Origin: a virus
Lineage: Duplodnaviria; Caudoviricetes
DNA length: 64,000 bases
Reading direction: 5' to 3' (one strand)
IMG/VR virus record: IMGVR_UViG_3300037067_017859
Location: 1 to 64,000 of that record
The first letter of the stretch is position 1. Every line of letters starts with the position of its first letter. A model generated the notes under the pieces. It saw nothing but the letters and a program-made list of their open reading frames with translations, ran no database searches and was not told the DNA's origin. Positions 4,806 through 48,567 of this stretch are shown one piece after another. Both the position numbers and the translations under genes were made by a program.

Positions 4806-5426
4806 TTAATCTAAACTCTTTCTTATTTTATTTATTTTTTCCAGCAAATCTTTATTTTTTTGCTTGGCGTCAAACAGTTCGTGCTCCAAGTCGCGGATCT
4901 TATTTTCAGAGCCTATAAACAGACTATCAATAGTTTTGAACTCCCCCTTAACGCACCACTTCTCTCGCTGCACTCTAAGAGATGCACTACATCCAAAGTC
5001 CGCCGTCTGCATGTGCCAGTATCCCGAATTCTTCGGACAGCGCTTGAAAAATTCCAATAGAATCTGTGCTTCCTTAATAAATCTTTCAACCGACACAAAA
5101 TCGATATGTAATGATGCAGTTACTACTTTAAGACTTATCGCATGAGTCTTTCGCGCCATACATGCACGCTTATCAGCTTGCAAACACTTCTGGCATTCGA
5201 TTGCCGGAGGACATCCGCAGTGAATGATCTTGTATTCTTCGCCTTTGGCGTCGTACGGTCGATTACAATGATGAATCTCTTCTGCTTTGTGATCGCCGTA
5301 AACGATGTCTGCATCCAGATGATGAAACTTGCACAGCAAATCTAATTGCGCCTGACAATGACAGTTCTCCAAATCCACATAACGCCCCATGCTATCGTCA
5401 CAGGATGTTGCGCCTCCTCCACCCAT
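4806..5426 (-). CDS. Cys-rich hypothetical protein (start corrected to MGGGG)
   Basis: The ORF-track start overlaps tRNA-Glu; GGAGG RBS precedes the ATG at 5426. Confidence 0.55.
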   Translation of the reverse strand: MGGGGATSCDDSMGRYVDLENCHCQAQLDLLCKFHHLDADIVYGDHKAEEIHHCNRPYDAKGEEYKIIHCGCPPAIECQKCLQADKRACMARKTHAISLKVVTASLHIDFVSVERFIKEAQILLEFFKRCPKNSGYWHMQTADFGCSASLRVQREKWCVKGEFKTIDSLFIGSENKIRDLEHELFDAKQKNKDLLEKINKIRKSLD

Positions 5427-5439
5427 AATTCCTCCTTTA

Positions 5440-5515
5440 TGGTGGACCCAGGCGGATTCGAACCGCCGTCCGCGGAGCGAAAGTCCGCTATCCTGGACCG
5501 CTAGACGATGGATCC
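5440..5515 (-). tRNA. tRNA-Glu(UUC)
   Basis: Cloverleaf; anticodon arm GCGGA-CTTTCGC-TCCGC; GGTTCGAATCC; encoded CCA. Confidence 0.92.
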
Positions 5516-5625
5516 TTGACGGCAAATCCCACTAACCGGCGCGTACCAGATTCGCAATGTCCCGGTTTGCCACGCCGGCCGAAGGATTCGCCGTTTCAAA
5601 AAACTTTTAATAAAGAGATACTGGC

Positions 5626-5711
5626 TGGCGGAGGGTGAGAGACTCGAACTCCCATGCCTTTCAGCGTCAGTTTTCAGGACTGGGGCGATACCAATTCCGC
5701 TACAACCCTCC
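5626..5711 (-). tRNA. tRNA-Ser(UGA), C at position 33
   Basis: GGAGGGT acceptor, long variable arm, loop CCTGAAA, G73 + CCA. Confidence 0.85.
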
Positions 5712-5712
5712 G

Positions 5713-5913
5713 TTATTTTGCTTTATCAATATCGGTCCTTGGAATAACTTCAGTTAAGCATGCAATTGGGAATTCGTCATTCTGAGGGGCGCTTCCCAAA
5801 TAACACCAGACACATTTGACACGATGGCCAGTAAGGATTTCTTCTATGGTCATAACTGGTCCGCCGCTGTTAAGCCGAACTGTTGTACCTACTTTGGCCG
5901 CTTTGAATTCCAT
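5713..5913 (-). CDS. YodC/DUF2158-like small protein
   Basis: GTTVRLNSGGPVMTI...VKCVW signature. Confidence 0.75.
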   Translation of the reverse strand: MEFKAAKVGTTVRLNSGGPVMTIEEILTGHRVKCVWCYLGSAPQNDEFPIACLTEVIPRTDIDKAK

Positions 5914-5930
5914 TGAACTCCTCCTAAATG

Positions 5931-6004
5931 TGGTTAGGGCGGCTGGATTCGAACCAGCGTACCCGGGTCCAAAGCCCGGTGCCAGGCCGCTTGGCTACGC
6001 CCCA
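5931..6004 (-). tRNA. tRNA-Gln(UUG)
   Basis: CCGGG-CTTTGGA-CCCGG anticodon arm; GGTTCGAATCC; CCA. Confidence 0.92.
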
Positions 6005-6532
6005 ATAATCCTAAGATATAATTTCTCCGTCATCCCTTATCATATAATACTGACCTTCCGGTAAATCAGGAAGGCCATGAGATTTAGCAATTTCGTCCAT
6101 GCGCCTTAATTGACGATTGAAATCTTCTTCTGATTTCGTTATTAACCACAAATTAACAATCGCTTCTATTTCAGCGCATTCCATTGCATTTGCCTTCATA
6201 ATTTTTACAGACCTCTTGTAACTCCGGGTTGCTTCATCTGGTCGGGATGTTCTTCTGCAAATTTACTAAACCGCTGGATAGCTTCGTCCGCCATTCTCAT
6301 CTGATGATCATTGCATCCATCGGCAATACAGATCTCCCGATAGGCTTGAATCCCTTTTAATGCATTCCAGTCTCGAGCCCGAAAGATGAAAATTGGTTCT
6401 TCTTCTGGAATCGGAACCCCGGTGGGAATCTTCACAAGAGAAATCATCGCATTGGGCGGAAGAGGCAATTCAATGCCAGTAATTGTATCAATTAATGCAA
6501 CTTTATATTTCCCATCATTCATGCTGTTCTCC

Positions 6533-6793
6533 TTATTTGCGATACCAGACTTTGTATGGATCGCTCAATGCGCCCATAAAAGATCTTTGAGAATTTATCG
6601 TTGTTACTTTTGCCTCAATAGCTCTTTCAGGAGGAAGTTTATTAAGAAAATCCGTTACATCCTCTAGCGTTCCGCAACTTTCCATCTGCCAACGTAACGA
6701 ATGAATTGTTGACTCAGTACTAATTGCAATAGAACATCCAAAAGCTATGGCTATTGCTAAAATCACCATTAAGGTCGTTGAAGTTCTTCGCAT
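6533..6793 (-). CDS. Small membrane-anchored hypothetical protein (start corrected)
   Basis: MRRTSTTLMVILAIAIAFG; GGAGG RBS; the longer ORF overlaps tRNAs. Confidence 0.55.
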   Translation of the reverse strand: MRRTSTTLMVILAIAIAFGCSIAISTESTIHSLRWQMESCGTLEDVTDFLNKLPPERAIEAKVTTINSQRSFMGALSDPYKVWYRK

Positions 6794-6808
6794 ATTCCTC
6801 CTTAGAAT

Positions 6809-6884
6809 TGGTAGGGGCAGCCGGACTTGAACCGGCAATTCCATGGTCCCAAACCATGAGCCTTCCCAATTTGGCCACGCCCCT
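6809..6884 (-). tRNA. tRNA-Pro(UGG)
   Basis: CATGG-TTTGGGA-CCATG; GGTTCAAGTCC; CCA. Confidence 0.9.
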
Positions 6885-6893
6885 ATAAACAAA

Positions 6894-6966
6894 CATACCC
6901 GCCAAGATTTGAACTTGGAACCTTCGGTTTTGGAGACCGTTGCTCCGCCAATTGAGCTACGGGTAT
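6894..6966 (-). tRNA. tRNA-Trp(CCA)
   Basis: ACGGT-CTCCAAA-ACCGA; TAGCTCAATTGG D arm; G73; CCA not encoded. Confidence 0.9.
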
Positions 6967-6969
6967 AAG

Positions 6970-7039
6970 GGTGGAGGCGAGATTCGAACTCGATCTCCCG
7001 GGTCACAACCGGGGGCTTTAACCGTTAAGCTACCTCCAC
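6970..7039 (-). tRNA. tRNA-His(GUG)
   Basis: CCCGG-TTGTGAC-CCGGG; C73; G-1 not encoded. Confidence 0.88.
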
Positions 7040-7233: not shown

Positions 7234-7572
7234 TCAATCTGATATTCCTTTATAAGTTTCGATTCTGAGATTTTTCTCATCCATTGCCGCCTCCACGGCT
7301 TTCTCGACGTCTACAAGTTGTCCAAGACGACGAGACACTTCTGCCTTATGCCAATGTTTAAACGTAATAGAATTAGCCATACGTTCCAATGCTGCTTTTT
7401 TGTTTTGAGCTTGAGATCTGAATTCGCGTCCTTCGCCGAAAGCTCCGGATGCTATGTGCGTGATGCGCACTCCATTTTGGTTGGAGTTTTGATGCTGGCC
7501 ACCAGGGCCGCCAGTGCAGAATGTTACAATCTTAAAATCCTTTTTTGTCAGACTGAATAGAAGCTTTCGCAT
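7234..7572 (-). CDS. Release-factor-like GGQ peptidyl-tRNA hydrolase domain (ArfB/PrfH-like)
   Basis: GGPGGQHQNSNQNGVRITHIASG...RSQAQNKKAALERM; likely start MRKLLF at 7572. Confidence 0.85.
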   Translation of the reverse strand: MRKLLFSLTKKDFKIVTFCTGGPGGQHQNSNQNGVRITHIASGAFGEGREFRSQAQNKKAALERMANSITFKHWHKAEVSRRLGQLVDVEKAVEAAMDEKNLRIETYKGISD

Positions 7573-7636
7573 GGTGTAAACCCGGTTTACTACAGGCGGA
7601 GCCAATCGCAAGTCATTGACTCCGCCGCGGTGAGGG

Positions 7637-7984
7637 TTATTGACCCTTGAGTTGCTCTTCAAGCTTCGCAATTTCGTCCTTGAGAGCTTGACGCTTCTCT
7701 TCGGCAGGCAATAAAGCTTCCAGCCGGGATTTCTTTTCACGAAGCATCTTTTGCAGCCGATCAGCCTGGCTCAAAGAGATTTCCTTACGGATCTCGCGCA
7801 TCTTAGCATCAAGCCATTCGGGTTGCTCGACATTGAGGGTTTTGAACTCTTCCTGGATTACACGTCCAACTGCGGACAGAGTTACAAGATCCTCTAGAGC
7901 AAGACCCTCGGTTTCAAACTTCCGAATCTCGTCTATCAAATACATGGTCCGACCTCCTTTCTTAGTCTTCTTGGTTGCCATCAC
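7637..7984 (-). CDS. Coiled-coil protein coupled to the Ro60-like gene
   Basis: Overlaps or abuts the stop of 7962-9488; K/E-rich helical sequence. Confidence 0.6.
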   Translation of the reverse strand: MMATKKTKKGGRTMYLIDEIRKFETEGLALEDLVTLSAVGRVIQEEFKTLNVEQPEWLDAKMREIRKEISLSQADRLQKMLREKKSRLEALLPAEEKRQALKDEIAKLEEQLKGQ

Positions 7985-9488
7985 TGAACGCCTCCGACAA
8001 TTTCAAAAGCGGAGTCGACATGATCTCCTCCACCAAAGAGTATGGATTGGTCCGCATGCTTTGGACCAAGTTTGGAATACTGTAAAAATCAACATCATCG
8101 CCAAGTTCAAAAACTTGCAGATCAAAGCCACTTTTCTTCATGTTTTCGGCAAGGTCCGAATCTCCCCAACCGTGAATTGCAGATCCACAATGGTAGTAAT
8201 AGACAGGAATATCTTTTTCGGAAATCTTCAAGAGACGCCGGTATTCATCAGTAAATAATGGCGGAGTGTTCTCTTGTCCATCAGAAACGATCGCAATCCC
8301 ATCAATCTCTTCATGCCTTTGCATGGCAGCCCGTAATCCGCAACCGATGGAAGTCCCTCCATTGGCACTAACATTACGGGTCTTCTTCAAAATTTCGTCG
8401 TAGCCTAACCCGGTTACATCCATCGTTTCAGGAACAGTATCAAAGAAGGCAAGGGTGATATTCCCCTTAACCATCTTTGCCAAAGTTCCAGCAACGTGCC
8501 GGGCGGCCTCAATGCACTCAGACATGGATCCTGATTTGTCACCCAGGACCAGCCAATTGCCTTCAATGCTCATATTTTGAATCTGCTTCTCCTGGACAGC
8601 ATTGAGTTTGGCTTTCAGTTTTTCATCGCTGATTGCTTCTGCTGCGCGAGTGGTCTTCAGGACGTTTTTCTTAGACGTAGCCGCTCTCTTGAGAGCAGCC
8701 TCAAATGCTGCACGGAGCGCCGGGACAGTTTTGACGCCCAATTTCTCCAGCATTTTAGTGCTGGTGACGACTTCTGTCGGGCTCATACGCTCAATAAGCG
8801 CAAGAACTAAATCAGGATCCTTAATTTTCTCTCCAAGCGCTCCGTGTGCTATCAAGAACGGAATCTTCCGTTCAAGAATAGTTCCAGCCGCCTCCAGCGC
8901 ACTCATATTGCGCAGGTTGGCAACAGCCTCAAAAACGCTTCCTTTTGGCAGAGGAGACTTGACCGGCTTCCGGCCTTCCTCCTTCGCTTTCAGTCTTTCA
9001 TCCAGAGTATATCCGAAAAGAACGACGTTCACCCGATCAGAGCCAGGCTTAACATCAACCAACGAATAGAGCTCTTTGAGAACTGAACGGTGTTGGATAG
9101 CGGTGAAATCCCATTTCTTCCCTTCCTTCATGTGAAGATAATCCGCAATCACCCGTTTGAGTTGCCGAATATGGCCGACCGGACGAACATCCAGAGCAAA
9201 TCGATAGGCTTTCAGCAACTCTCTTGGATTCAAAAAAGTCAAATGAGCAAGACTGTTTTCGACGAGTTCTTGCGGAAATCCGGGAACGGTCAAACTGACA
9301 ATAGGCAAAGCCGCTTTCGCGTCCCTAATCTGCCCATGAGTGCGATCCCATGCAATAAGATGAGCCAAAAAGTCAGGTTCATTCTGCGCCGCAAGTTGTC
9401 CGATCGCAAGATATTCACGGAGTTTCCCATGAGGGGATTTGCTGAGTTCGGATATAATTTGGTTCTTGGTTATTTTGACTTTTTCCAT
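7962..9488 (-). CDS. Ro60/Rsr-like TROVE + vWA domain protein
   Basis: 508 aa; all-helical N-terminal ~300 aa; C-terminal vWA MIDAS DKSGSM...GGTS...VSDGQEN. Size and architecture match Ro60, and it sits next to Y-RNA-like stems. Confidence 0.72.
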   Translation of the reverse strand: MEKVKITKNQIISELSKSPHGKLREYLAIGQLAAQNEPDFLAHLIAWDRTHGQIRDAKAALPIVSLTVPGFPQELVENSLAHLTFLNPRELLKAYRFALDVRPVGHIRQLKRVIADYLHMKEGKKWDFTAIQHRSVLKELYSLVDVKPGSDRVNVVLFGYTLDERLKAKEEGRKPVKSPLPKGSVFEAVANLRNMSALEAAGTILERKIPFLIAHGALGEKIKDPDLVLALIERMSPTEVVTSTKMLEKLGVKTVPALRAAFEAALKRAATSKKNVLKTTRAAEAISDEKLKAKLNAVQEKQIQNMSIEGNWLVLGDKSGSMSECIEAARHVAGTLAKMVKGNITLAFFDTVPETMDVTGLGYDEILKKTRNVSANGGTSIGCGLRAAMQRHEEIDGIAIVSDGQENTPPLFTDEYRRLLKISEKDIPVYYYHCGSAIHGWGDSDLAENMKKSGFDLQVFELGDDVDFYSIPNLVQSMRTNPYSLVEEIMSTPLLKLSEAFSDGNQED

Positions 9489-9509: not shown

Positions 9510-9603
9510 TCACTGGAAGTCGATCGGCTTGAGTGCCATCCCGGTATTACCGAGACATAGGCATCATGTGTTAAAGACATGTAAGCCAATTCAGTACCAG
9601 TGA
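9510..9603 (-). ncRNA. Y-like cassette A (non-tRNA hairpin cargo)
   Basis: CACTGG-TACTGAAT-TGGCT-TACATG ... AAGCCGA-TCGACTT-CCAGTG. Confidence 0.8.
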
Positions 9604-9832
9604 ATCTTTTAGGATTTATATATTTTATTACCTCTCAACATCTTTAGCTTTCCGGACATATTTTACCAATGCTACAGTGAGAGATTCTTTTCCAATTACC
9701 CTGAAATACCACGCAAAGCAGCCCTTCCCAGTTATGATCAGATCCCCGATTTTCCAATACATGGCCTCTGGGCAGCGAAATTGCTGAACCTTTTTGGTCA
9801 AGGGAGTCATCTATATAAATCCCAATCTTTTC

Positions 9833-9908
9833 GTCCCATGTGCTATAGGCGCTGCGTCGAATCGGACCTGTTATGCCTAATTTGGTCCACTCAGACAGCA
9901 CATGGGAC
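9833..9908 (-). ncRNA. Y-RNA-like structured RNA with possible pseudoknot
   Basis: 12-bp terminal stem GTCCCATGTGCT/AGCACATGGGAC; GUC(U)GA/UCGAC bulged helix; GGACC/GGTCC; loop TAGGC can pair with GCCTA. Confidence 0.6.
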
Positions 9909-9911
9909 TTT

Positions 9912-9986
9912 GATGGTCCCCGCTACGGCTCTTATAGTCCCAATCCTCGAACCTTGGGCGGGTGTTGCCGGACTATCCGACCATCT
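9912..9986 (-). ncRNA. Structured RNA, nested stems with possible pseudoknot
   Basis: GATGGTC/GACCATC, ATAGTCC/GGACTAT, CCCGC/GCGGG. Confidence 0.5.
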
Positions 9987-9994
9987 ACTTTTTC

Positions 9995-10140
9995 TGGTTG
10001 CAAAGTCGACAATGCTGTTTTGATACAGACTGTTTATGAGACAGTTGCCCAACCGTTGGGCGGATCCGGCATAATAAAAAGAAAAGAGCCGGATCCCGGA
10101 GTCGAACCGGGTTCATGTAAGCATTTTCAGTATGCAACCA
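9995..10140 (-). tRNA. Cassette B: circularly permuted tRNA (anticodon CAU), break in variable loop (about 45/46)
   Basis: TACAT|GAA-CCCGGTTCGACTCCGGG-ATCCGGC..linker..GCCGGAT-D arm-ACTGTCTCATAAACAGT-CT. Confidence 0.85.
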
Positions 10141-10151
10141 TATAATTATTC

Positions 10152-10289
10152 TGGCGGTAAGTCGTTCGTGGTTTTTTTATTAGCCACTCCCCCATACTGG
10201 AATTAAAGTGGGGGAGTCAGGATTTGAACCTGAAATCTACTGATTAGTATTCAGTTGCTTTACCATGTATCCACATTCAGTGACCGCCA
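10152..10289 (-). tRNA. Cassette C: permuted tRNA (anticodon ACU), break in D loop before G18
   Basis: TACAT|GGTAAAGC-A-ACTGAATACTAATCAGT-...TCAGGTTCAAATCCTGA-CTCCCCC..linker..GGGGGAGTGGCTAAT; joining gives D loop AATGGTAA. Confidence 0.85.
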
Positions 10290-10297
10290 TATTTTAC

Positions 10298-10455
10298 TGG
10301 CCTATAAGTCGATCAGCTTATTTTTCTGTGCGTTTTCCATTTTCGCCATCCCCCTATAATTGAAAGATGAGGCAGGGGGAGAAGGAATCGAACCTTCAAT
10401 TTCGGTTTCCCGAAAACAGGACCCTAAGTCATGTAAGCTATTCAGTAACAGGCCA
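10298..10455 (-). tRNA. Cassette D: permuted tRNA-Leu(UAG), break in anticodon stem (29/30)
   Basis: 5' piece ends CGCACAG, 3' piece starts GACTTAGGGTCCTG; joining gives CAGGA-CTTAGGG-TCCTG; long variable arm. Confidence 0.87.
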
Positions 10456-10471
10456 TAGTCTTTTCAAAGAT

Positions 10472-10610
10472 CTGGAAGAGTCTGCAACGCCTTGGAGCCT
10501 GTAATATAATTCCGCAACTAATTCAGGATCCACGTCAGTCCGATTCGCTTGCTCCCATAGCCAAGAGGCAGTGTGTTTTTAATTGGACTCAGACTCTACA
10601 ATAATCCGGA
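10472..10610 (-). ncRNA. Putative structured RNA between cassettes
   Basis: Inverted repeats AGAGTCTG/CAGACTCT and AGTCCAATT/AATCGGACT; no start codon for its open frame. Confidence 0.35.
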
Positions 10611-10692
10611 GGGGTTCCTGGGACGCTATCCTCTAGAACCCCTATTCAAAATGCCCTCAATTGGGGCGTTTAGTACTTTATGACTGCAAGTC

Positions 10693-10723
10693 GTTTCAAT
10701 CCACGCCTCACGCTGGAGGCGAC
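10693..10723 (-). CRISPR. Solitary type I-C-like CRISPR repeat (no array)
   Basis: GTCGCCTCCAGCGTGAGGCGTGGATTGAAAC: GTCGC start, CGCCTC/GAGGCG hairpin, TGGATTGAAAC end. Confidence 0.75.
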
Positions 10724-10725
10724 GA

Positions 10726-10845
10726 TGGCTGTAAGTCGGCTGAGGAGCATTTGTGTTCGATACCCATCGACCCCCCCATACTATTTTTTGTGGAGGGGGG
10801 CGCCTGCGAGGCGCTACGCATGTAACCTCATCACAGTAACAGCCA
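10726..10845 (-). ncRNA. Cassette F: permuted tmRNA-like tRNA domain (Ala identity)
   Basis: GGGGGGG/CCCCTCC-A acceptor with G3:U70 and A73; stemless D region TCGATGGGTATCGA; aberrant T loop; no anticodon arm. Confidence 0.6.
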
Positions 10846-10865
10846 AATTCTTATTTCTGTGAGGC

Positions 10866-11411
10866 TCATTTGATTACCCGCTTTGCGAGGTAATCAACAA
10901 ACTTATTCGGATCCATCCCGCGCTCTGCGCACCAGACAAAAGGATCCTGCGAACCCTTATCTTTATTGCATGGCTTGCAGGACGTCAGATAATTCGAAGT
11001 GTTATTCTTCTTGTCGTCCATCTCGAGAGGGATAAAGTGATCGATCGTCATCAATCTCTCGCCCATCTTCGCGCCGCAATACATGCATTTAAACCCATCG
11101 GCCGCCCAAACCTTCTGCTGGATCGAGCCGGATATTTCGTATCTCACTTTCCGTTGGAAGATCTTAGGGTTTCCAACGAGTATCTCTGGATCATCGGAGC
11201 GGTGGATAAAGTCTGACCATTCCTCGACAGTCAATTCGTATTGATCCAGTGGACTGACTTGAGAAGTACCAGGAAGGAGTAGCAGTGCGTGAGCTCCTCC
11301 ACCACCTACAAGAAGTCCCTGAATCCTAATCAGCGACCCGATATCGCCATACATAACCGGGCGATTCCGCATTTCCATCAAATAGAACCGTTCCCCGCTT
11401 CCTTTGGACAT
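10866..11411 (-). CDS. HNH endonuclease embedded in the cassette array
   Basis: CMYCG...TIDHFIP...NNTSNYLTSCKPCNKDKG. Confidence 0.85.
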   Translation of the reverse strand: MSKGSGERFYLMEMRNRPVMYGDIGSLIRIQGLLVGGGGAHALLLLPGTSQVSPLDQYELTVEEWSDFIHRSDDPEILVGNPKIFQRKVRYEISGSIQQKVWAADGFKCMYCGAKMGERLMTIDHFIPLEMDDKKNNTSNYLTSCKPCNKDKGSQDPFVWCAERGMDPNKFVDYLAKRVIK

Positions 11412-11428
11412 CGTTGCCTCTTAATAAC

Positions 11429-11557
11429 TGGCGTTAATTCGATATGCTTTTTTTACGCGCTCTAACCAGACTGAGCTAACGGCTCAAAAGAGCCGTGTTG
11501 GACTTGAACCAACGACCTCGGCATTGGAATTGCATGTAAGCCTACCAGTGAACGCCA
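11429..11557 (-). tRNA. Cassette G: permuted tRNA-Gly(UCC), break in anticodon stem (28/29)
   Basis: 5' piece ends GAGCGCG, 3' piece starts GCAATTCCAATGCCG; joining gives CGGCA-ATTCCAA-TGCCG; U73; acceptor closed by TTTT. Confidence 0.87.
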
Positions 11558-11572
11558 TTTCTGGATTTTACC

Positions 11573-11697
11573 GTTCCCTGAAAGTCGATCAGCGGTTTTC
11601 CCTTGCGGGAATGATCGGATTTGAACCGATAACACATTGATCTCAAGTCAATTGCTCTACCATTGAGCTACATGTAAGCCGAACAGTATCAGGGAAC
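11573..11697 (-). tRNA. Cassette H: permuted tRNA (anticodon UGA, short variable loop), break in acceptor stem (6/7)
   Basis: TACAT|GTAGCTCAATGGTAGAGC-A-ATTGACTTGAGATCAAT-...CATTCCC-GCAA-GGGAA. Confidence 0.82.
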
Positions 11698-48030: not shown

Positions 48031-48567
48031 AAAACGATGATCCTACCAAATTCGAGGTTGCCTGCGTTCATGGCACATCTATTATCAGGCGTAAGGTCGT
48101 AAATGAAAAGGGATTTGAAATTCTACAAAGGATGGCGGAAAGAGCAACAAATGGACAATATCACTGGATTAGAGTAAATTATCCCGATTCGACAACAGAG
48201 CGGGTGCTTGGGGAAGTACCTGGGGCTCATAACCCTGGTAAAGGCGGTCCGACTCCGCCACCCGCTACCAAATTAAAATTAAAAGAACCAAGTCCTTTTA
48301 AAGGAGACCCTGGCGATTCAACAACCAAATGTCTTGGTTGTGATAAGGATTTGGGATACCCAACAAGCAGAAAAAAACCATCTGCATGGTGCCGGTCCTG
48401 CTATCCAAAATATAGAGCTTATCTCAAAGATGAAGTTAATCCTTATAACTATGATTTTCCGATTTATAATTATGCGTCAGGCCATAATTCAATAAATTTA
48501 AGAATAAAACAAAAAATGCAATATGGGTTCAGGATTCTTTATGCTTCATATAACGAAGGATAGAGTC

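What the first reader, a model, noticed from the sequence alone, without database searches (positions are those of the whole stretch)
9510..11697. Array of circularly permuted tRNAs, each clamped in a conserved Y-RNA-like stem, beside a phage Ro60-like gene: candidate new tRNA maturation or tRNA-mimic system
Seen: seven minus-strand cassettes (9510-9603, 9995-10140, 10152-10289, 10298-10455, 10726-10845, 11429-11557, 11573-11697) share a 5' arm [stem1]-YACUG-[stem2]-UACAUG and a 3' arm [stem2']-NCGA(C/A)UU-[stem1']. Stem sequences differ but stay complementary (TGGTTGCA/TGCAACCA, TGGCGGT/ACCGCCA, GTTCCCTGA/TCAGGGAAC). Five cassettes hold a whole tRNA in 3'-piece/linker/5'-piece order. Known: bacterial YrlA Y RNAs beside Ro60/Rsr genes contain a permuted tRNA-like domain, but the Ro stem replaces the anticodon arm. 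Genuine permuted tRNA genes are known from some algae and archaea and use BHB splicing. Here the anticodon arms are intact, the break point varies and I see no BHB. Inference: the Ro-like protein binds the clamp and either helps cut and ligate the pieces into working tRNAs, or displays them as decoys against tRNA-targeting defences.
Basis: partly seen in the sequence, partly recalled or inferred. Interest (0 to 1): 0.97.

Follow-up and report, generated by a model that had tools for sequence, protein, structure and literature searches.

The report
Phage Ro60 RNAs carrying whole tRNAs
Upstream of a very divergent phage Ro60 gene lie seven small RNA genes that each hold a tRNA (or a hairpin) in one conserved two-stem clamp attached at different points of the tRNA; this is a large, undescribed branch of the tRNA-mimicking Y RNAs.

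Summary
Exactly seven cassettes in the 109-kb phage genome carry the composite clamp. All lie at the stated coordinates, on the strand of the 508-aa gene and directly upstream of it.

That protein misses Pfam TROVE, but its fold is Ro60 (HEAT ring plus vWA).

The clamp is stem1, an internal loop (YACU against GACUU), stem2, then a UACAU linker facing an A-rich linker. It covaries strongly. In relatives it gave 130 pattern hits and 134 covariance-model hits, all on the Ro strand and none opposite. In an independent scan of viral contigs, all 7 stem-flanked matches had a Ro gene nearby and 0 of 113 stemless matches did.

Cargo in the window:
- four complete tRNAs in permuted order, broken in the anticodon stem (two), the D loop and the variable region;
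- one tRNA in normal order;
- one degenerate tRNA-like body;
- one pair of hairpins.

Rfam YrlA touches only one cassette, below threshold.

I read these as Y-RNA-type Ro60 ligands that display whole tRNA bodies, not as spliced tRNA genes. Many acceptor stems are capped by tetraloops, anticodons drift away from tRNA identity, A34 is enriched, and the phage has no RNA ligase. An HNH nuclease and a coiled-coil protein are conserved partners.

Verdict: a new variant of a known kind. The function is unproven.

The parts
11573..11697 (-). Cassette c7: clamp plus a tRNA in normal order (anticodon UGA, short variable loop). The AUG of UACAUG pairs with CAU as acceptor positions 5-7, and a stacked UCCC-GCAA-GGGA hairpin follows.
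   Evidence: Rfam tRNA 56.7 bits, model positions 5-66. R1 36 bits. Orthologues in L009 and L012 carry a full 7-bp acceptor stem, and the L009 one is called as a tRNA by ARAGORN.
11429..11557 (-). Cassette c6: clamp plus a complete tRNA in permuted order, interrupted in the anticodon-stem 5' strand at 28/29 (anticodon UCC). The acceptor stem is closed by a UUUU loop.
   Evidence: Sub-threshold Rfam YrlA hit, 37.4 bits, E 5e-6. Rejoined at UACAU|G it gives a 75-nt cloverleaf with all stems Watson-Crick. R1 34.4 bits.
10866..11411 (-). 181-aa protein: conserved N-terminal domain of unknown fold plus an HNH nuclease domain, sitting inside the array.
   Evidence: Pfam HNH 8e-9. The fold matches Cas9/McrA HNH domains. 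Full-length homologues lie on the Ro strand in about 29 of 79 related loci (35 with partial matches), often directly upstream of Ro.
10726..10845 (-). Cassette c5: clamp plus a degenerate tRNA-like body (T-like arm with a 5-nt loop, 7-bp acceptor followed by UCCA, linker ending UAU, D-like arm), with no anticodon arm.
   Evidence: Sequence reading. Conserved in L009, L010, L012 and L013 with compensatory changes. R1 23.8 bits.
10298..10455 (-). Cassette c4: clamp plus a class II tRNA in permuted order, interrupted at 29/30 of the anticodon stem (anticodon UAG, G73, long variable arm: a Ser-like body).
   Evidence: Rejoined it gives a 90-nt cloverleaf. The 3 nt CAG right after N26 complete a perfect 5-bp anticodon stem. 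Orthologues carry UGA and GUG anticodons.
10152..10289 (-). Cassette c3: clamp plus a tRNA in permuted order, interrupted in the D loop (anticodon ACU).
   Evidence: Rfam tRNA 32.8 bits, model positions 7-64. ARAGORN finds a tRNA after rotation. The L012 orthologue covaries in the D stem.
9995..10140 (-). Cassette c2: clamp plus a tRNA in permuted order, interrupted between the variable region and the T arm (anticodon CAU).
   Evidence: ARAGORN finds a tRNA after rotation in most cut choices tried (182 of 208). Orthologues carry UCA and UAA anticodons, or have lost the arm.
9510..9603 (-). Cassette c1: clamp plus two hairpins and no tRNA. It ends about 20 nt before the Ro start codon. The first hairpin, CAUGU-CUUUAAC-ACAUG, looks like an anticodon stem-loop.
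   Evidence: Best R1 hit in the window, 49.1 bits. Fold.
7962..9488 (-). 508-aa Ro60-like protein: HEAT-repeat ring plus a vWA domain with an invariant D-x-S-x-S motif.
   Evidence: AF2 model, pLDDT 81.5. The top 12 listed Foldseek PDB hits are Ro60/TROVE proteins: 9kop, 9l5y, 1yvp, 2nvo. Pfam finds only a weak VWA_CoxE match. D317, S319 and S321 are invariant.
7637..7984 (-). 115-aa coiled-coil protein overlapping the end of the Ro gene; a conserved partner.
   Evidence: Homologue directly downstream of Ro in 54 of 79 loci. No family match.

Best explanation
The array encodes seven Y-RNA-type small RNAs that serve a divergent phage Ro60. Each RNA has a common handle formed by its two ends: stem1, a conserved internal loop (5'-YACU / 5'-GACUU), then stem2. 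Two single-stranded tethers, UACAU on the 5' side and an A-rich run on the 3' side, connect the handle to a cargo. The cargo is usually a complete tRNA. The handle can be attached at the acceptor ends, in the D loop, in the 5' strand of the anticodon stem, or in the variable region, and this gives the permuted gene order. I infer that Ro60 binds the handle, as it binds the terminal stem and internal loop of known Y RNAs, probably together with the coiled-coil protein and often the HNH protein. The tRNA body then hangs on the tethers as a full-shape tRNA mimic. Where the acceptor linker is long and carries N73-CC(A)...UAU|G, host RNase P and 3' trimming probably open it into a two-piece RNA, as shown for M. 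smegmatis YrlA. Where the acceptor stem is capped by a tetraloop it stays closed. The likely role is to couple Ro60 to host proteins that recognise tRNA, either as a tether or as a decoy, and not to supply decoding tRNAs. Shown: the anatomy, the covariation, the Ro fold and the gene linkage. Inferred: Ro binding, the processing steps and the role.
For: Ro fold. Clamps lie only on the Ro strand and almost always within about 2.5 kb upstream: 130 against 0 by pattern, 134 against 0 by model R1. In an independent scan, 7 of 7 stem-flanked matches against 0 of 113 stemless matches sit next to a Ro gene. The architecture (terminal stem, internal loop with a CGA motif, second stem, tRNA-like domain, upstream of Ro on the same strand) matches published Y RNAs (PMC4201824, PMC12135203). 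Cassettes without any tRNA keep the clamp. About 10 of 42 permuted cargoes have acceptor stems capped by UUCG, GNRA or UUUU loops. Orthologous cassettes keep the tRNA body but change the anticodon: UGA/UUA/GAA/UGA/UUC, and UAG/UGA/GUG on one Ser-like body. Anticodon-loop shape is kept (U33 in 46 of 50, R37 in 49 of 50), while A34 is 11 of 50 against 23 of 439 in unclamped tRNAs of the same loci. No RtcB or Rnl2 ligase and no CCA-adding enzyme in the complete genome (the T4 Rnl1 search was uninformative). The phage has an ordinary unclamped tRNA cluster at 5440-7039.
Against: No binding data exist. The conserved CGA(C/A)UU lies on the 3' strand, whereas the Ro-contact motif of YrlA, phiLo Yrl2 and Xenopus Y RNA lies on the 5' strand. 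The cargoes are better tRNAs than any known Y RNA: end-clamped ones score 48-68 bits over the full Rfam tRNA model. Removing everything from the A-rich linker to UACAU leaves exactly a tRNA, with a perfect 5-bp anticodon stem in 14 of about 20 cassettes of that class. N73-CC is strongly enriched (16 of 42). These features are also what a maturation pathway would need. A host ligase cannot be excluded.
Confidence: 0.55

Rival explanations
1. These are genuine tRNA precursors. The clamp is a processing signal, perhaps chaperoned by Ro60. End-clamped tRNAs are released by RNase P and 3' trimming. Permuted ones are cut after UACAU and before the A-rich linker, joined by a host ligase such as RtcB, and opened at the acceptor linker by RNase P. 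The products are working tRNAs, some with unusual or suppressor anticodons.
For: Rejoining at UACAU|G gives textbook cloverleafs. The 2-3 nt needed to complete the anticodon stem sit exactly after N26 in 14 of about 20 cassettes. N73-CC(A) occurs in 16 of 42, UAU before position +1 in 10, and G at +1 in 32 of 42. End-clamped cargoes score like ordinary phage tRNAs. The G after UACAU is conserved whatever its role in the cargo. Suppressor-type anticodons (UUA, UCA, CUA) make up 6 of 50.
Against: About 10 of 42 acceptor stems are capped by stable 4-5 nt loops, including one with a CUA anticodon. The anticodon changes on an unchanged body, for example a Ser-type body with Leu or His anticodons. 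A34 is enriched. Some cassettes have no tRNA at all. No ligase gene was found in the phage (uninformative). There is no BHB motif and no known bacterial endonuclease for such a site. The phage has normal tRNA genes nearby.
Confidence: 0.2
2. The clamp is a double-strand processing stalk, like the RNase III sites that flank rRNAs or T7 transcripts. It only serves to cut a polycistronic transcript into units. Its position next to Ro reflects shared transcription, not binding.
For: A stem, internal loop and stem of about 15 bp formed by flanking sequences resembles phage RNase III sites (own knowledge). Cassettes are packed 8-15 nt apart. No promoter-like or terminator-like site was found on the cassette strand inside the array.
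Against: The loop and linker sequences (YACU, GACUU, UACAU) are conserved down to 38% Ro identity. The clamp is never seen without a Ro-like gene. The unclamped tRNAs of the same phages do without it.
Confidence: 0.1
3. The repeats act at the DNA level, as inverted-repeat targets or footprints of the HNH nuclease or of a mobile element, and the RNA structure is incidental.
For: An HNH gene sits inside the array and is conserved with it.
Against: Stem sequences differ in every copy while pairing is kept. All copies are strand-specific (130 against 0). The cargoes are oriented tRNAs. G-U outnumbers A-C among non-Watson-Crick stem positions, 20 against 11. At least 44 of 79 loci show no match to the HNH protein, and many of these still have clamps.
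Confidence: 0.03

Closest known systems
YrlA-type bacterial and phage Y RNAs (Rfam RF02553; Chen et al. 2014, PMC4201824)
   Same: Encoded just upstream of Ro60 on the same strand. The two ends pair into a stem with an internal loop. The middle is a tRNA-like domain in the order T arm, acceptor, D arm. The acceptor is either closed or, in M. smegmatis, opened by RNase P and given CCA.
   Different: A different conserved handle: YACU/GACUU loop plus UACAU linker, with the CGA motif on the 3' strand instead of GNCGAAN0-1G near the 5' end. The handle does not replace the anticodon arm, so whole tRNAs with anticodon stem-loops are present. There are at least five attachment points, including the unpermuted ends. 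Arrays hold up to seven. Only one cassette reaches even 37 bits against the model's cut-off of 69.
Yrl1 and Yrl2 of Thermus phage phiLo, bound by its Ro60 (PMC12135203; PDB 9KOP, 9L5Y)
   Same: A phage Ro60 with stem-bulge-stem RNAs encoded upstream. That Ro60 is the best structural match to the protein here.
   Different: phiLo has two RNAs without a described tRNA body. Its CGAA motif is on the 5' strand. Binding is shown experimentally there and only inferred here.
Circularly permuted tRNA genes of Cyanidioschyzon merolae and other algae and archaea (own knowledge)
   Same: The 3' part lies upstream of the 5' part, joined by a linker between the acceptor ends. Break points vary. In-silico rejoining gives canonical cloverleafs.
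   Different: Those use a bulge-helix-bulge motif, the splicing endonuclease and a ligase, and give proven mature tRNAs. Here there is no BHB, no such enzymes are known in bacteria, many acceptors are capped, and anticodon and identity are uncoupled.
Two-piece tmRNA from permuted ssrA genes (Rfam RF04321, tmRNA_permuted)
   Same: A permuted gene gives a tRNA-like domain built from two strands that stay base-paired after the linker is excised, with no ligation. A weak Rfam hit lies on the T arm, acceptor and linker of c3 (21.7 bits, E 0.097).
   Different: No mRNA-like part, no link to SmpB, a different handle, and a location at a Ro60 locus.

Membership tests
Y RNA / YrlA (Ro60-associated ncRNA) | Encoded within a few kb of a Ro60 orthologue, on the same strand | tested here: met
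   All 7 cassettes lie 22-2200 nt upstream of the Ro-fold gene. In relatives, 130 and 134 hits are on the Ro strand and 0 are opposite.
Y RNA / YrlA (Ro60-associated ncRNA) | 5' and 3' ends pair into a stem interrupted by a conserved internal loop or bulge | tested here: met
   Stem1, a 4x5 internal loop and stem2, with covariation.
Y RNA / YrlA (Ro60-associated ncRNA) | GNCGAAN0-1G (or GGUCCGA-like) motif on the 5' strand near the 5' end | tested here: not met
   The 5' strand has YACUG. The CGA(C/A)UU motif is on the 3' strand.
Y RNA / YrlA (Ro60-associated ncRNA) | tRNA-like domain with T arm, D arm and acceptor-like stem | tested here: met
   Present in c2 to c7, and more complete than in YrlA.
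Y RNA / YrlA (Ro60-associated ncRNA) | Reaches the Rfam RF02553 gathering score | tested here: not met
   Best hit is 37.4 bits against 69, for c6 only. No hits in 12 related loci.
Y RNA / YrlA (Ro60-associated ncRNA) | Bound by Ro60 in vivo or in vitro | not testable with these tools
   Needs immunoprecipitation or EMSA.
Circularly permuted tRNA gene matured by splicing | 3' part, linker and 5' part that rejoin to a canonical cloverleaf | tested here: met
   c2, c3, c4 and c6.
Circularly permuted tRNA gene matured by splicing | Bulge-helix-bulge motif at the paired termini | tested here: not met
   The termini form stem1, a symmetric 4x5 loop and stem2, with 5-nt linkers. There are no 3-nt bulges spaced by 4 bp.
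Circularly permuted tRNA gene matured by splicing | A matching endonuclease and RNA ligase are available | tested here: inconclusive
   No RtcB or Rnl2 in the complete phage genome. The T4 Rnl1 control did not match anywhere, so that search says nothing. The host is unknown.
Circularly permuted tRNA gene matured by splicing | A mature, chargeable tRNA is produced | not testable with these tools
   Needs RNA-seq, northern blots or acid gels.
Ro60 / TROVE protein | HEAT-repeat ring followed by a vWA domain with a MIDAS motif | tested here: met
   Foldseek TM 0.52-0.60 over the full length to Ro60 structures. D317-x-S319-x-S321 is invariant.
Ro60 / TROVE protein | Matches Pfam TROVE (PF05731) | tested here: not met
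   No hit in the protein or the genome. Sequence identity to solved Ro60 structures is 12-16%.

The most novel reading that the evidence does not exclude
The clamp is the signal for a cut-and-join pathway not known in bacteria or phages. The RNA is cut after UACAU and before the A-rich linker and the ends are ligated by a host enzyme, with Ro60 holding the precursor. RNase P then opens the acceptor linker. In this way circularly permuted phage genes would yield working tRNAs, some with suppressor or otherwise absent anticodons.
Probability: 0.13. Interest if true: 0.95.

Novelty: new variant of a known kind. Interest (0 to 1): 0.72.

Why it matters
What the tRNA-like part of bacterial Y RNAs does is still unknown. 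This family takes the mimicry to its limit. It carries complete tRNAs with anticodon stem-loops, hung on a constant handle at any of five or more positions, up to seven per phage, in a large group of roughly 100-kb environmental phages. The handle stays constant while the attachment point varies. This argues that the three-dimensional tRNA shape is what is selected, together with a tether to Ro60. It gives a direct experimental handle: swap cargoes, pull down partners. The work also defines a Ro60 clade that Pfam does not see, two conserved partner proteins (an HNH nuclease and a coiled-coil protein), and an RNA motif absent from Rfam. If the minority reading is right, it would be the first permuted-tRNA maturation pathway outside eukaryotes and archaea.

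Tried and rejected
- DNA similarity of the array to 50,697 phage records: no match.
- Sequence search of the Ro-like protein against PDB: nothing. Pfam TROVE: nothing. Only the fold search identified the protein.
- I tried to locate a single fixed splice junction with ARAGORN on rotated sequences. ARAGORN accepts too many cut combinations to do this, so I replaced it with an explicit base-pair test on the anticodon-stem class.
- Self-cleaving ribozyme: compared by eye with hammerhead and hairpin cores. The conserved core is only about 17 nt, with no third helix or pseudoknot. Rejected as unlikely.
- UACAU equals the MazF (B. subtilis / S. aureus) recognition sequence as I recall it. Not tested and kept only as a lead.
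- RF-1-domain (ArfB-like) neighbour: present in only 9 of 79 loci, so not part of the core.
- HNH as a stray homing endonuclease: rejected, because full-length homologues co-diverge with Ro down to 38-41% Ro identity.
- The N-terminal domain of the HNH protein and the 115-aa protein gave no family or fold match.
Full report
WHAT IS THERE. The window is the first 64 kb of a 109,283-bp virus record rated complete. A composite pattern (YACTG, 5-12 nt, TACATG, 30-160 nt, NCGANTT) occurs exactly seven times in the whole genome. The array ends 22 nt upstream of a 508-aa ORF (7962-9488, minus strand). A 181-aa HNH gene (10866-11411) sits inside it. Six ordinary tRNA genes lie elsewhere in the window, five of them at 5440-7039.

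THE PROTEIN. Pfam gives only a weak VWA_CoxE match. TROVE does not match the protein or the genome, and a sequence search of PDB finds nothing. An AlphaFold model built on 28 homologues (pLDDT 81.5) matches Ro60/TROVE structures over its full length in the top 12 listed Foldseek hits. These include Thermus phage phiLo Ro60 (9KOP, 9L5Y), Xenopus and human Ro60, and Deinococcus Rsr, with TM 0.52-0.60 and E 1e-10 to 1e-7 at 12-16% identity. The MIDAS-type D-x-S-x-S motif is invariant. The protein belongs to a large clade: more than 880 homologues, many on contigs of about 100 kb, none annotated.

THE CLAMP. From 16 short cassettes (alignment A2) the structure is as follows:
- stem1, 7-9 bp;
- an internal loop, 5'-YACU-3' facing 5'-GACUU-3';
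- stem2, 5-8 bp, opened by the G of YACUG pairing with the C of CGACUU;
- a single-stranded UACAU on the 5' side and an A-rich run of 3-8 nt on the 3' side, leading into the cargo.

Of the paired cells 83% form standard pairs. Thirteen of 14 pairs change on both sides. No shuffle out of 500 and no slid register comes close. One caveat applies: stem pairing was part of how the cassettes were picked.

LINK TO Ro60. I fetched 79 viral loci with Ro relatives at 38-88% identity.
- A relaxed pattern scan found 130 clamps on the Ro strand and none on the other strand.
- The covariance model R1 found 134 hits at E ≤ 1, all on the Ro strand. These included loci the pattern had missed, and almost all lie within about 2.5 kb upstream of Ro.
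- In the reverse direction, a motif-only scan of viral contigs returned 120 matches. The 7 with a flanking stem all had a Ro homologue in the locus; the 113 without a stem had none.
- In the window's own genome R1 hits only the array.

Two further genes travel with Ro. A 115-aa coiled-coil protein lies directly downstream in 54 of 79 loci. The HNH protein is full length in about 29 loci (35 counting partial matches), often immediately upstream of Ro, and its divergence tracks that of Ro. Its C-terminal half has the Cas9/McrA HNH fold. Its N-terminal half matches nothing.

THE CARGO. Of 108 distinct cassettes, ARAGORN finds an ordinary tRNA inside the clamp in 20. After circular rotation it finds a junction-spanning tRNA in 65, against 4 of 108 control segments. 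End-clamped cargoes score 48-68 bits over the whole Rfam tRNA model, like the phages' ordinary tRNAs.

In the window:
- c7 is in normal order. Its acceptor helix is AUG/CAU plus a stacked GCAA hairpin.
- c6 and c4 are interrupted in the 5' strand of the anticodon stem, at 28/29 and 29/30.
- c3 is interrupted in the D loop.
- c2 is interrupted between the variable region and the T arm.
- c5 is a degenerate tRNA-like body with UCCA.
- c1 has only hairpins.

If everything from the A-rich linker through the clamp to UACAU is removed, c6 becomes a textbook 75-nt cloverleaf. c4 becomes a 90-nt class II cloverleaf. Across the family, 14 of about 20 cassettes of this class obtain a perfect 5-bp anticodon stem in this way. 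The missing 2-3 nt sit exactly after N26.

MIMIC OR PRECURSOR. Several features speak against decoding tRNAs.
- Among 42 permuted cargoes, about 10 cap the acceptor stem with 4-5 nt loops (UUCG, GCAA, GUAA, UUUU, CUCG). One of these carries an amber-type CUA anticodon.
- Orthologous cassettes keep the body but change the anticodon. The first cassette reads UGA, UUA, GAA, UGA and UUC in five relatives. The c4 family reads UAG, UGA and GUG on one Ser-like body with G73.
- Anticodon-loop shape is maintained: U33 in 46 of 50, purine 37 in 49 of 50, and a 5-bp stem in 38 of 50. Yet A34, which is rare in real bacterial tRNAs, is 11 of 50, against 23 of 439 in unclamped tRNAs of the same loci.
- Some cassettes have no tRNA at all.
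- The phage has no RtcB, Rnl2-type ligase or CCA-adding enzyme. The T4 Rnl1 search was uninformative because its control matched nothing.

Other features speak for real acceptor-end processing. The longer linkers start with N73-CC in 16 of 42 (about 3 expected by chance), with N73-CCA in 9. They end in UAU in 10, and G is at +1 in 32 of 42. This is what is published for M. smegmatis YrlA, which RNase P cleaves and which receives CCA while staying Ro-bound as two pieces (PMC4201824). I therefore favour Ro60-tethered tRNA mimics, partly opened at the acceptor linker. I keep a maturation pathway as the main rival.

COMPARISON WITH WHAT IS KNOWN. Y RNAs with tRNA-like domains next to Ro60 are known in more than 250 bacteria and 22 phages (PMC4201824). 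A phage Ro60 that binds upstream stem-bulge-stem RNAs and host PNPase has been shown for phiLo (PMC12135203). What differs here:
- the handle, whose motifs and strand differ from the GNCGAA motif;
- the handle is added to the tRNA instead of replacing its anticodon arm;
- the number of attachment points;
- the array size;
- the partner proteins.

Rfam 15 has no model for it. Only c6 gets a sub-threshold YrlA hit, and that alignment places the anticodon loop in the Ro-binding part of the model. Full-text searches found no description of such RNAs. Earlier first-stage notes of this scan on the same stretch pointed to the UACAU|G junction, the UAU leaders, the HNH gene and the CRISPR-like repeat. 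I tested the first three here and they hold.

LIMITS. Ro binding, transcription, processing and function are all inferred. The host is unknown; related contigs are binned with Acidobacteriota MAGs, which is weak evidence. The related loci were found through the Ro gene, so clamps far from Ro would be under-sampled.

Noticed in passing
window 10693-10723 (-): A single CRISPR-repeat-like element ending in GUGGAUUGAAAC, 2 nt after cassette c5. The Rfam CRISPR-DR9 match is weak (17.5 bits, E 2.2). The 12-nt tail is conserved in the closest relative (L009 4016-4027) and occurs in L013 at 1152. It could be a solitary-repeat RNA anti-CRISPR.
   Followed up: partly
window 9833-9990 (-): About 160 nt of non-coding sequence between c2 and c1 is nearly identical in the 88%-identity relative (L001 about 5625-5795). 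It has no clamp and no Rfam match. It may be another structured RNA.
   Followed up: no
window 10456-10690 (-): About 235 nt of conserved non-coding sequence between c4 and the CRISPR-like repeat, also present in L001 (about 5030-5260). Function unknown.
   Followed up: no
window 7234-7740 (-): A 168-aa protein with an RF-1 (GGQ peptidyl-tRNA hydrolase, ArfB-like) domain lies two genes downstream of Ro. A homologue is present in only 9 of 79 related loci.
   Followed up: partly
window 5440-7039 (-) and 48199-48270 (+): Six ordinary, unclamped tRNA genes (Glu, Gln, Pro, Trp, His, Met). The phage keeps a normal tRNA set apart from the clamped ones.
   Followed up: partly
L214, L215, L218 (genome contigs): Ro-like homologues at 50-58% identity lie on MAG contigs binned as Acidobacteriota (three), Clostridia and Verrucomicrobia. 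Clamps are present in L217 and L214. This is a possible hint to the host, or a binning artefact.
   Followed up: partly
L077 6776-7542: In one distant relative (Ro 38% identical) the five-cassette array lies downstream of the Ro gene instead of upstream.
   Followed up: no
LR756511.1 285714-287216: A 595-kb uncultured huge phage encodes a 26%-identical homologue of this Ro-like protein. It is the only hit among 50,697 deposited phage records.
   Followed up: no
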